DNA of 17,464 nucleotides from a virus (taxonomy: Duplodnaviria; Heunggongvirae; Uroviricota; Caudoviricetes), in the IMG/VR virus record IMGVR_UViG_2778261165_000010; one strand, given 5' to 3'. Positions 1 to 17,464 of this stretch are shown here, one piece after another. The translations under genes and the position numbers were made by a program. Position 1 is the first letter of the stretch. Each line of letters opens with the position of its first letter. Below the pieces are notes generated by a model, which had not been told where the DNA came from, searched no databases, and saw only the letters and a program-made list of their open reading frames with translations.

Positions 1-19
1 GCTGGGAAGGCTGGGTCAT
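1..19 (-). CDS. 5' end of the next tail gene downstream of the tape measure (partial, runs off window)
   Basis: ATG at 19..17 on the minus strand preceded by GGAGGG; only 6 codons (MTQPSQ) are visible. The short Shine-Dalgarno spacing makes this uncertain. Confidence 0.3.
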
Positions 20-124
20 ATCCCTCCGGCAGAAGCAGAAAAAGCTTATTATGCTTCCATCAGAAACGATGATCTGGCAGCCTGAGTTCACAGATAAAAC
101 ACTCTCCAGGAAAACCGGGGCGGT

Positions 125-1963
125 TCACTGTCTGAGTTCAATTCCTTCCTGTTGTCGCTTGTTGTAATCGTTTATTGATGAATTTAGTACGTCCTGAGCA
201 ATTTTTTCTGCTTGAAGTACGCCCAATTGCTGCTTTAATCGTGCCAGCCTTTTATTTTGAGCTCCGCCATCTCCAATGCCACCTAACCCGAAAACTCCGG
301 GTCGGGTATTTTTTTCTATTTCATCAATTTGACGGAGAACATCTGAGATTTTTTGATCAAGGGAGGCCTCACGGCCAATATCCAGCATGGAATCCCATGC
401 CCATTTTGCGGAGTCTGCGACAGCTTTCCATGCAGTCTCAAGATAACCAAGATTTTCTTTAATCTGGTTGGTGCGCTGGATCATTGAGGATGAGTATTCT
501 TCTGTCGCAATGCGGGCGGCCTCCTGCTGGTTCCCTTCATCCTGTAGCGCCTTAATCTGGTTATAAGTCGCAAGTGTCAGAAAATGGTACTGATCATTAA
601 GTTTTGATATGGCACTGACAGGATCCTTTGCAATTTCATTGAAGTCATTAACCAGTTGTTCGGTTGATATTCCTGTTACTTCGCTCGTTTTTACTATCGC
701 TGTCGTCACTTGCTCCAGCGAACTGCTCGCTACCTTTCCCGAACGCACAAGCTGATTTAATACTGCCGCCGCAGCACCAGTTGTCGAATCAGCCGCATTC
801 CCGGCACGTTGAGCTATATCGCCCAATTGCCCGCTGGTTGTCCCCAACTGATTTCCGGTAAGAATAAGAGATTTATTAAATTCGTCCTGCTCCTGAGAGC
901 CTTTATAGTAAGCCAGTCCTAAGACCCCAACGGCTGCTGCGGCCAGGGTAAAAGGATTAATTAATCCCAGCACATAAGAACCTACACCTTTGATCGCCGG
1001 GCCAATCCCACCGAACATATCTTTTAGCTGGCCGCCCTGCTGCATTAACACCATAAATGGCGACTGACCAGTGGACAACCCAACAACAATATCCGTCATT
1101 TGTGCAGGCAACATGCGCATAGCAAAAGCCGTTTGTTTTGCCGACATTCCGGTTTTGCTTAATTGTGATTGAGTAACCTCAAGCTCACTCCGCATAGCAC
1201 GAAGTTTTCCAGAAAGCTCCTCATACATTTCAGGAGAAAGCATCCCCTTAGCTTTTGCTTCATTGAGCTGTTTCTGTTGTTCTACCAGACGATTAAAAGC
1301 AGTTCCGACAGGATCAAGTTGAGCAATCAGACGTTGCAAAGCAACAACCTGTTCATCATGCGCTTTTGCTGCTTCTCGCTCTGCCTGAGCCTCTCCGGTA
1401 AGCTCTCGCCGTGTTTCCTGTATTTTTCGGCTATAATTCTCAAACTGAGAACCATTTATTTTCCCGGATGCAAACGCAGCATTAAGTTCATCATGCTGTT
1501 GTTCAAGATTTCTTAGCGCCGCAGCCAGAGGGTCGATCTTGTCCAGCATTCTTTGAAAGGCCTGAGCCTGCGCTTCCTGCTGGGCGGCAGCAAGTTTTCC
1601 GGCCTTCTCGGCTTCTCTCTGCGCTTGCGCAACCCCGCTCAATTCCTCTGTGGTTTCATTAAGTTTACGGACAAGAAATTCATATTCTTCTTTATCAATA
1701 AGCCCTTTATCGAAAAATTTCTTTAATTCAGAATAGCGTCGACCGACAGTATCAATTGCGGCACCAACTGGATCAATAGCTGCTTTTAATTTTGCGAGCG
1801 CGTTCTTCTCATCTTCTGTTGCCTTAGTCACTTTCCCTGCGCTATTTGCAGCAGTTTCCCCAGCCTGCGTCATTTTGACTAATGAGGAGGTCAGATTGTC
1901 AGCATTATTTTTCGCTCCAGTGCTATCAATAATTATTGCGAGACGCGAGGTTTGCTCTGCCAT
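125..1963 (-). CDS. tail tape measure protein (612 aa)
   Basis: Long ORF with ATG at 1963 preceded by AGGAG. Extended Ala/Gln/Glu-rich coiled-coil repeats (e.g. [24 protein letters not shown]), a hydrophobic Gly-rich central segment ([22 protein letters not shown]), and a position immediately after the G/GT chaperone pair. Confidence 0.85.
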
Positions 1964-3935: not shown

Positions 3936-4328
3936 CTAGAGCGCGCGATATGGAATTTGAAGATTAAGCTGGAACCAGCCATTCTTTTCGCCAACGGCTA
4001 TTGAGGAAACAGCCTGGTAACTGAGACGATCGTCATCCTGAAACTCAAACAGTTCCCGCAATTTATCGGCTGTCTCAGTAATGAGTTTTGAACCAGAACC
4101 TGCGGGGACAAATAACTGAATAATGATTATCCCCGTGCGATAAACAATCGGCCCCGCGCCAATTTCATTAACTCCAGCCTGCCCGGGAATATTACTTAAC
4201 CGCGCCCAGATTAACTTACCGGAAGGATCGAACGTTGGCGCGTTCGGATACAATACGTCTTTTCCATCAATAATCGTCTGTGCCGTCATTCTGGAAATAA
4301 CCGTATTTCTGATTTCAGTAAACGTCAT
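3936..4328 (-). CDS. tail terminator protein (lambda gpU-like by position)
   Basis: 130-aa ORF immediately upstream of the tail tube gene; its start overlaps the preceding gene by 4 nt. Called by synteny. Confidence 0.5.
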   Translation of the reverse strand: MTFTEIRNTVISRMTAQTIIDGKDVLYPNAPTFDPSGKLIWARLSNIPGQAGVNEIGAGPIVYRTGIIIIQLFVPAGSGSKLITETADKLRELFEFQDDDRLSYQAVSSIAVGEKNGWFQLNLQIPYRAL

Positions 4329-4705
4329 TTGTAAGCCTGTAAAACACCATGAAAAGCGTTGGCATACACGCCAGTTGGCGCTTGTTGTGAATGACCGTTT
4401 TCAAGAGCCTCTGCATAAGGAAGGTTATTCTGGATATAAATAACTCCGTAATTTGCAGCTTTCGAAATAACCCCGATCCCACGCTGAACAGCAATCGTAC
4501 CGTTCGGATCCACGTTATCAGATATACCAAAATCGGGATGCTGTAACGACACCAGGTTGTTATTTCTGAAACGTCCGGTATCAACCGGAGCAGCAATATC
4601 AATAGCAGTAAGAATCTGAATAGCGATGTAGCGAATCTTCAGCCCTACATCTTCCTCAATCATCCCGGCAAATATTGACGGTTCTATATCCCATGCCTTT
4701 GCCAT
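4325..4705 (-). CDS. HK97 gp10-like tail completion protein
   Basis: 126 aa containing a PVDTGRFRNN motif characteristic of the HK97 gp10 family; abuts the upstream gene. Confidence 0.65.
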   Translation of the reverse strand: MAKAWDIEPSIFAGMIEEDVGLKIRYIAIQILTAIDIAAPVDTGRFRNNNLVSLQHPDFGISDNVDPNGTIAVQRGIGVISKAANYGVIYIQNNLPYAEALENGHSQQAPTGVYANAFHGVLQAYK

Positions 4706-5089
4706 TTACGCTCTCCTTAACTGGATAGAGTAAACTGATGCGGAAGGATCTACACTTGCTGTAATTACCTCGTATCGTTGTAACTGCCTTGATACAGGAT
4801 CATAAATCTCAATAATATGGTCGACAGCTGGTTTATCCGTAACCTCGCATACCAGAGCGGTTAATTTAAGGTCACCATGCAAAATATTAATCCCATCAAT
4901 TCTGCCCAGCTTATAACGTGTCAACACGCCTCGCCCGGTATAGATTGCGGTGGATTCGCCGCCAGTTTCCGTCACAGGATCCCAGTGCCGGTGCGTAACG
5001 TAAGAACCAGAAAAATCACTCACGGCGTCCGCTAAATCCTCATCAAAAGCAGCGGCAACCTCTGACTGAATCTCTTCACGAAGCCCCAT
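4706..5089 (-). CDS. head closure / head-tail joining protein (putative)
   Basis: 127-aa ORF whose ATG (5089..5087) overlaps the upstream stop as TAATG. Called by synteny between adaptor and tail completion genes. Confidence 0.45.
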   Translation of the reverse strand: MGLREEIQSEVAAAFDEDLADAVSDFSGSYVTHRHWDPVTETGGESTAIYTGRGVLTRYKLGRIDGINILHGDLKLTALVCEVTDKPAVDHIIEIYDPVSRQLQRYEVITASVDPSASVYSIQLRRA

Positions 5090-5483
5090 TATCCCCCCCT
5101 CACAACCCTGACTTGTGAGCGACTAAGTCCGTACGGTTTCAGCAGTGCTATCGCAAGCTGTAAATCGGGTTCAAGCAATGCAGTGCTGTTTGCTGGCAAC
5201 TCAGAAAATGATTTCGATACACTGACCCCGTCAGCCGACACGGCTTTACTGATAACAACGCCAGAATCATTTTTCTGCTGAAACAACTTACCGAATGAGG
5301 CAATTCTGGCTGCATATGCTCCCGCAAGTTTTACCTCTTCCGGAATACGGGATGGGTTAATTTTCAGGTTGAGCCATTAAGCCAGGCATTAGCCATTAAA
5401 ACAGCTTTATTTTTAGCGTTCTCACTCGTCCAGGCGTTCCCAAACGCATTATCAACGTCATCACAGGTCACGTAAGTGATCAT
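5089..5483 (-). pseudogene. head-tail adaptor/connector gene interrupted by a frameshift
   Basis: ATG at 5483 with AGGAG 6 nt upstream opens a frame (MITYVTCDDVDNAFGNAWTSENAKNKAVLMANAWLNGST) that stops at 5364. A second frame, open from 5376 to 5089, continues (WLNLKINPSRIPEEVKLAGAYAARIASFGK...VRVVRGG). The two overlap by about 12 nt and differ by -1. No slippery heptamer is present. Confidence 0.55.
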
Positions 5484-5486
5484 GTG

Positions 5487-5663
5487 TTACTCCTGAGTTT
5501 TCCAGCCCATAGCCTTCCAGTTGTCAACTTCATCAGGATGAACATTAGCGATAGTTGGTGCGCCGGGAAACATCTGATAATCGGTCACCATAACCACTAA
5601 CTCAATTTGCGTTTTTTGTGCGGCTTCACGCTGTGCTCTTTGCTCTTTAGTTAATCCGGCCAT
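5487..5663 (-). CDS. small hypothetical protein (58 aa) downstream of the capsid gene
   Basis: ATG at 5663..5661; translation MAGLTKEQRAQREAAQKTQIELVVMVTDYQMFPGAPTIANVHPDEVDNWKAMGWKTQE. Its stop lies 3 nt before the next ATG. Below the length cut-off of the ORF track. The Shine-Dalgarno is G-rich only. Confidence 0.45.
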   Translation of the reverse strand: MAGLTKEQRAQREAAQKTQIELVVMVTDYQMFPGAPTIANVHPDEVDNWKAMGWKTQE

Positions 5664-5671
5664 ATGCCCCC

Positions 5672-5696
5672 CATTAAAAATGGGGCCGAAGCCCCG
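5672..5696 (-). terminator. intrinsic terminator after the major capsid gene
   Basis: On the minus strand: GGGGC-TTCG-GCCCC hairpin (plus 5682..5695) followed by ATTTTTAA, 10 nt after the capsid stop codon. Confidence 0.65.
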
Positions 5697-5705
5697 TTTG
5701 AATGT

Positions 5706-17337: not shown

Positions 17338-17464
17338 TGGATTTGCCCCTATATTTCCAGACATCTGTTATCACTTAACCCATTACAAGCCCGCTGCCGC
17401 AGATATTCCCGTGGCGAGCGATAACCCAGCGCACTATGCGGATGCCATTCGTTATAATGCTCGA
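17338..17464 (-). mobile_element. IS2 insertion sequence, terminal 127 bp (remainder outside window)
   Basis: Plus strand from 17338 reads TGGATTTGCCCCTATATTTCCAGACATCTGTTATCACTTAACCC, which I recognise from memory as the IS2 right terminal inverted repeat. It is followed by the 3' end of the transposase reading frame. Confidence 0.75.
17349..17464 (-). CDS. insD: IS2 transposase OrfB, C-terminal fragment (partial)
   Basis: The minus-strand frame translates to ..[37 protein letters not shown], the conserved C-terminal tail of IS3-family DDE (rve) transposases. The stop is at 17351..17349. Confidence 0.7.

What the first reader, a model, noticed from the sequence alone, without database searches (positions are those of the whole stretch)
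5089..5483. Head-tail adaptor gene split by a -1 frame change at a 9-bp direct repeat
A well-initiated ORF stops after 39 codons, and the downstream 90-codon frame continues in the -1 frame with a 12-nt overlap. No slippery heptamer is present, so this looks like a mutation or sequencing error, not recoding. The break sits in a locally repetitive stretch (TTAATGGCT..10 nt..TTAATGGCT on the minus strand), which suggests slippage. If real, the prophage cannot join heads to tails, consistent with decay also suggested by the IS2 insertion.
Basis: seen in the sequence. Interest (0 to 1): 0.5.

Follow-up and report, generated by a model that had tools for sequence, protein, structure and literature searches.

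The report
Frameshifted head-tail adaptor pseudogene in prophage
A Rac-like E. coli prophage has lost one base from its head-to-tail adaptor gene, an inherited inactivating mutation that public annotation already marks as a pseudogene, so it is ordinary prophage decay.

Summary
On the minus strand, an ORF with a good ribosome-binding site (ATG 5483) stops after 39 codons (TGA 5366-5364), and the rest of the gene runs on in the -1 frame to TAA 5091-5089. Alignment with intact copies shows the cause: one T of a TT next to window 5372 is missing, giving 395 nt instead of 396 nt (131 aa). Of 740 complete E. coli genomes that carry this locus, 20 have exactly this allele. They come from at least 11 sequencing projects, so it is an inherited mutation and not a sequencing error. 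619 genomes have the exact intact sequence, and sampled members of the other 101 keep the intact length. RefSeq already annotates the allele as a "frameshifted" pseudogene. The restored protein matches PHROG 493 "head-tail adaptor Ad1" over its full length (E 7e-49), sits just upstream of the head-closure, Neck1 and tail-terminator genes, and its predicted fold best matches solved phage adaptors, including HK97 gp6. There is no slippery heptamer, and all homologues sampled are single ORFs, so recoding is excluded. The 9-bp repeat is real, but it is also present in every intact copy checked and is probably coincidental. The same prophage copy also has a tape-measure gene truncated by an IS element and an IS2 in its lysis cassette. 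Verdict: a known, ordinary pseudogene of low interest.

The parts
5089..5483 (-). Whole head-tail adaptor (Ad1) pseudogene, 395 nt against 396 nt in intact copies
   Evidence: Alignment with the intact copy. RefSeq annotates identical DNA as 'protein singed, frameshifted'. The restored protein matches PHROG 493.
5364..5483 (-). N-terminal remnant ORF: 37 native residues, then Ser-Thr, then stop TGA (5366-5364)
   Evidence: Compared with the intact 131-aa protein.
5089..5376 (-). Rest of the gene in the -1 frame (native residues 38-131), with no usable start codon or Shine-Dalgarno of its own
   Evidence: translation; scan for start codons and SD-like motifs.
5372..5372 (-). Site of the lesion: the single T that remains of the TT in intact copies (an A of AA on the + strand). 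Intact GGCTTCAAC has become GGCTCAAC.
5391..5399 (-). First copy of the 9-bp direct repeat TTAATGGCT (codons L-M-A)
   Evidence: Present in the intact alleles too.
5372..5380 (-). Second copy of the 9-bp direct repeat TTAATGGCT (read in another register as L-N-G)
5491..5495 (-). Shine-Dalgarno AGGAG of the adaptor gene, inside the end of the upstream 58-aa ORF
5487..5663 (-). Upstream 58-aa ORF (PHROG 1514, function unknown)
4706..5089 (-). Head-closure protein Hc1. Its ATG overlaps the adaptor's TAA (ATAATG) and it has its own GAGGGGGGG Shine-Dalgarno.
4325..4705 (-). Tail completion / Neck1 protein (HK97 gp10-like)
3936..4328 (-). Tail terminator
125..1963 (-). Tape-measure gene truncated to 612 of 1077 codons by the IS3-family element at 1-124
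   Evidence: compared with the 3234-nt full-length gene.
1..124 (.). End of an IS3-family insertion sequence
17340..17464 (.). IS2 terminal inverted repeat, inserted between lysozyme rrrD and the holin gene

Best explanation
The region is the head-tail adaptor (Ad1; HK97 gp6 / SPP1 gp15 class) gene of a Rac-like lambdoid prophage of E. coli. It was inactivated by loss of one T from a TT dinucleotide at codon 38 (TTC, Phe). Translation from the normal start yields a 39-residue peptide holding only the first two helices, then terminates. The remaining 94 codons lie in the -1 frame with no start signal and are not made. Without the adaptor ring on the portal, filled heads cannot be sealed and joined to tails, so this mutation alone prevents this prophage copy from making infectious particles. 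The mutation arose once, on a prophage background otherwise near-identical to intact copies, and is inherited vertically in one E. coli lineage. In the window's strain it was followed by IS insertions in the tape-measure gene and in the lysis cassette. Shown here: the deletion, its population frequency, the family and fold of the protein, and the lack of recoding signals. Inferred: the loss of head-tail joining, the single origin, and the order of events.
Against: No read-level data are available for the window's own assembly. Function is assigned by homology and a moderate-confidence model: Foldseek against PDB found nothing, there was no PDB sequence hit, and Pfam gives only a sub-threshold DnaT_2 match of 19.5 bits against a cut-off of 27. 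No experiment shows that the intact version of this prophage makes particles at all. The E. coli 'phage' records that carry the gene appear, from the title of bioRxiv 10.1101/2022.06.29.498070 found, to be prophages found within clinical isolate genomes rather than isolated phages.
Confidence: 0.93

Rival explanations
1. The missing base is a sequencing or assembly error in the window, and the gene is intact in the real organism.
For: Single-base indels are the commonest assembly error. Other single-assembly indels in this prophage sit in T6-T9 or G7 runs and look like errors.
Against: The identical allele is present in 20 complete genomes from at least 11 unrelated projects and platforms. It lies in a TT dinucleotide, not a long homopolymer. 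The window is 100% identical to several of these genomes over the 1 kb around it.
Confidence: 0.03
2. Programmed -1 ribosomal frameshifting or transcriptional slippage restores a full-length adaptor from the split gene.
For: The two frames overlap by 13 nt. A modest hairpin can form about 20 nt downstream (-19.4 kcal/mol).
Against: There is no X XXY YYZ heptamer or A/T run in TGGCTCAACCTGA. The hairpin is not exceptional (z = -1.7; 11 of 200 shuffles fold as well) and is poorly spaced. 619 genomes have the exact intact sequence, the sampled remainder also keep intact length, and all phage and other-genus homologues checked are single ORFs. The two-frame layout is therefore not conserved.
Confidence: 0.015
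3. The two pieces act as separate functional genes: a split adaptor, or a C-terminal fragment re-initiated after the stop.
For: The Pfam DnaT_2 match covers only residues 41-129. CTG (5367) and ATT (5361) codons lie at the stop.
Against: There is no ATG, GTG or TTG with a Shine-Dalgarno anywhere near the start of the second frame. No homologue is split. The N-terminal helices are the most conserved part and belong to the helical bundle in the model.
Confidence: 0.015

Closest known systems
HK97 gp6 / SPP1 gp15-type head-tail adaptor (PHROG 'Ad1'; solved examples HK97 gp6 3jvo, Mu gpJ 5ydn, Bxb1 and Douge adaptors)
   Different: Sequence identity to solved adaptors is only 11-16%. There is no Pfam Phage_connect_1 hit. 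In this window the gene is broken and cannot make the protein.
Frameshifted pseudogenes in cryptic E. coli prophages such as Rac in K-12 (named from my own knowledge of E. coli genomes)
   Same: The prophage type is the same (trkG, ydaY and a truncated ynaK are annotated in the closest genomes; rrrD is also present). It decays through point lesions and IS insertions. PGAP annotates the allele as 'frameshifted'.
   Different: Unlike K-12 Rac, which from my own knowledge has lost its head genes altogether, this copy still has a complete-looking head and neck module apart from this one base.
Programmed -1 frameshift in tail assembly chaperone genes (lambda G/GT type)
   Same: Two overlapping frames within a phage structural operon.
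   Different: It is a different gene, there is no slippery heptamer, and the split is not conserved. The resemblance is superficial only.

Membership tests
Head-tail adaptor Ad1 (HK97 gp6 / SPP1 gp15 class) | Sequence membership in a curated adaptor family | tested here: met
   The restored 131-aa protein matches PHROG 493 'head-tail adaptor Ad1' at E 7.4e-49 over profile positions 1-127 of 128.
Head-tail adaptor Ad1 (HK97 gp6 / SPP1 gp15 class) | Pfam gp6-like connector domain (Phage_connect_1) | tested here: not met
   The only Pfam hit is DnaT_2 at 19.5 bits, below the 27-bit cut-off. Some homologues carry precomputed PF20557.
Head-tail adaptor Ad1 (HK97 gp6 / SPP1 gp15 class) | gp6-like fold (helical bundle plus hairpin) | tested here: met
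   [not shown]
Head-tail adaptor Ad1 (HK97 gp6 / SPP1 gp15 class) | Gene position between the capsid gene and the head-closure / neck genes | tested here: met
   Gene order is major capsid, 58-aa ORF, this gene, Hc1, Neck1, tail terminator, tail tube.
Head-tail adaptor Ad1 (HK97 gp6 / SPP1 gp15 class) | Forms a 12-mer ring on the portal in virions | not testable with these tools
   This needs cryo-EM or biochemistry of particles from a strain with the intact allele.
Frameshift pseudogene | Differs from intact orthologues by an indel that is not a multiple of 3, giving a premature stop | tested here: met
   A 1-nt deletion is the only difference, and a stop follows 2 codons later.
Frameshift pseudogene | The allele is reproducible in independent assemblies, so it is not an error | tested here: met
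   20 complete genomes from at least 11 projects carry it.
Programmed -1 ribosomal frameshift site | Slippery heptamer X XXY YYZ in the overlap | tested here: not met
   The overlap TGGCTCAACCTGA contains none.
Programmed -1 ribosomal frameshift site | Two-frame architecture conserved in homologues | tested here: not met
   The homologues are single ORFs in E. coli, in phage-collection records and in other genera.
Programmed -1 ribosomal frameshift site | Stable stimulatory structure 5-9 nt downstream | tested here: not met
   The only hairpin starts about 20 nt downstream at -19.4 kcal/mol, with z = -1.7.

The most novel reading that the evidence does not exclude
Probability: 0.02. Interest if true: 0.5.

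Novelty: already known. Interest (0 to 1): 0.07.

Why it matters
It matters little beyond correct annotation. The locus should be recorded as a frameshifted pseudogene of a head-tail adaptor, not as two small ORFs, and the prophage as defective. The shared 1-nt deletion is a convenient lineage marker for a set of human, poultry and wildlife E. coli isolates. The family's RefSeq product name, 'protein singed', could usefully be replaced by 'head-tail adaptor'.

Tried and rejected
- **PDB sequence search:** the restored protein gave no hits even at E <= 10.
- **Pfam:** only a sub-threshold DnaT_2 match.
- **Rfam:** no family reached its gathering score anywhere in the window.
- **Literature:** the search on Rac, trkG and head-tail found nothing relevant. 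The E. coli 'phage' records carrying the intact gene trace to a preprint on phages located in clinical isolates, so they do not show that the prophage is active.
- **'Protein singed' as a pseudogene marker:** rejected. The name also labels intact 131-aa variants.
- **Repeat-driven slippage:** rejected as the cause, because the repeat is present in all intact loci checked and is not rare in the window.
- **Recoding and re-initiation:** considered and rejected.

Full report
**Observation**

Reading the minus strand of 4900-5700, listing ORFs and translating all three frames confirms the description.
- An ATG at 5483 is preceded by AGGAG at 5495-5491.
- It opens a 39-codon ORF (MITYVTCDDVDNAFGNAWTSENAKNKAVLMANAWLNGST) that ends at TGA 5366-5364.
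- The -1 frame is open from 5376 and runs to TAA 5091-5089, which overlaps the ATG of the next gene (ATAATG).
- The frames overlap by 13 nt (TGGCTCAACCTGA, stop included), and this stretch has no X XXY YYZ heptamer.
- TTAATGGCT occurs at 5399-5391 and 5380-5372, separated by 10 nt.

**Cause of the break**

A megablast of the surrounding 1 kb against 5,426 complete E. coli genomes found the locus in 760 of them. Some were 100% identical, while many aligned over a record stretch one base longer. Alignment of the window with an intact copy (strain 7/2) and an identical copy (SLK172) shows a single difference in 412 columns. Intact GGCTTCAAC has become GGCTCAAC, so one T of a TT is lost next to window 5372, which is one A of AA on the plus strand. 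The intact gene is 396 nt and encodes a 131-aa protein, WP_000634214.1. In the window the product keeps 37 native residues, adds Ser-Thr and stops.

**Real allele or sequencing error**

- An 80-nt probe centred on the lesion matches exactly in 20 of the 740 genomes that carry the site.
- The corresponding intact 81-mer matches exactly in 619. Of the other 121, 20 are the frameshift allele, and the members of the remaining 101 that were listed keep the 81-nt intact length.
- The 20 carriers include human, chicken, frog and giant-panda isolates from China, Vietnam, Korea and Singapore, plus NCTC9080. That is at least 11 independent projects.
- The site is a dinucleotide, not a long homopolymer.
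- RefSeq/PGAP annotates every carrier examined as 'protein singed, frameshifted'.

A sequencing artefact is therefore very unlikely, and the feature is already in public annotation.

**Origin of the allele**

I aligned the 17.2-kb prophage segment of the window, six carriers and six close non-carriers.
- Five carriers differ from the window by 3-9 positions, and the nearest intact copy differs by 6.
- No informative site conflicts with a single origin of the deletion.

Carriers such as 2017.03.02CC, NCTC9080 and ET665 have neither of the IS insertions seen at the window's ends. The frameshift therefore probably predates those insertions. This ordering is an inference from parsimony.

**What the gene is**

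- *Sequence family:* the restored protein matches PHROG 493 'head-tail adaptor Ad1' at E 7.4e-49 over the whole profile.
- *Neighbours:* the three genes downstream match head closure Hc1, tail completion/Neck1 and tail terminator. The upstream 58-aa ORF is PHROG 1514 of unknown function.
- *Pfam:* only a sub-threshold DnaT_2 hit for the adaptor (19.5 bits against a cut-off of 27), plus Phage_tail_terminator_5 for the terminator.
- *PDB by sequence:* nothing.
- *Structure:* I collected homologues, aligned 32 of them and predicted the structure of a 97%-identical full-length member, P0003. Mean pLDDT is 66, with 80-86 over residues 1-60, and low confidence in a beta-hairpin at 70-102.

Family match, gene position and fold agree that this is the Ad1 adaptor. 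The 39-residue remnant holds only helices 1 and 2 of the model.

**Recoding and split-gene alternatives**

- The overlap has no slippery site.
- The only downstream hairpin is unexceptional (-19.4 kcal/mol, z = -1.7) and starts about 20 nt away.
- The second frame has no ATG, GTG or TTG with a Shine-Dalgarno near its beginning.
- All 31 phage-collection homologues (Escherichia, Salmonella, Klebsiella, Erwinia, Pseudomonas, Acinetobacter, Moraxella) align in one frame over at least 89% of the protein.
- The 30 full-length Enterobacterales homologues in the alignment are continuous across the break, and the N-terminal 40 residues are the most conserved region.

**The repeat**

TTAATGGCT-N10-TTAATGGCT is present in all 19 loci fetched, including the 10 with the intact allele. 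It therefore pre-exists the mutation. It falls in the conserved LMANAWLNG motif, read in two different registers. Pairs of 9-mers this close are not rare in the window: 6 observed against 2.2 +/- 1.9 expected. Slippage between the copies would delete 19 nt, not 1. The lesion is best described as the loss of one T from a TT that starts with the last base of the second repeat copy. A causal role for the repeat is unsupported.

**Context**

The window is a Rac-like lambdoid prophage segment. The closest genomes annotate trkG, ydaY, rrrD, terminase, portal, a P22-family capsid protein and the neck and tail genes.
- Window 1-124 is the end of an IS3-family element that truncates the tape-measure gene to 612 of 1077 codons.
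- Window 17340-17464 is the IS2 inverted repeat, inserted between the lysozyme and holin genes.

This prophage copy therefore carries at least three disabling lesions.

**Mechanistic consequence (inferred from established phage assembly knowledge)**

The adaptor ring binds the portal after DNA packaging and provides the platform for the head-closure protein and the tail. Without it, heads cannot be completed and joined to tails. Hc1 has its own strong Shine-Dalgarno, so downstream expression need not be abolished.

**Verdict**

The feature is an ordinary, already-annotated frameshift pseudogene in a decaying prophage, of low interest and with no novelty.

Noticed in passing
[not shown]
   Followed up: partly
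window 17340-17464: An IS2 terminal inverted repeat (TGGATTTGCCCCTATATTTCC...) is inserted between the lysozyme gene rrrD and the holin gene. This separates the lysis genes.
   Followed up: partly
L008 (DXMF6-3R) 570-880; proteins P0066, P0018, P0001: The same adaptor gene carries other, independent lesions or variants elsewhere. These are an IS1203 insertion inside it (on top of the same 1-nt deletion), an internal deletion variant seen on 9 contigs, a junction variant, and a stop-to-Lys fusion with the upstream 58-aa ORF seen on 8 contigs.
   Followed up: partly
L014, L016, L017, L019 (window equivalents 9214, 12016, 11058, 2996, 7956): Close relatives with an intact adaptor gene have single-assembly frameshifts in the portal and small terminase genes, the large terminase gene, the tail tube gene (a T9 run) or the minor head protein gene (a T6/T7 run). 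Some are probably assembly errors and others real decay.
   Followed up: partly
[not shown]
   Followed up: no
[not shown]
   Followed up: no
RefSeq annotation of the family: The product name 'protein singed' is applied to both intact and broken members of this family across Enterobacterales. It is uninformative. PHROG and the fold evidence indicate a head-tail adaptor.
   Followed up: partly
[not shown]
   Followed up: no
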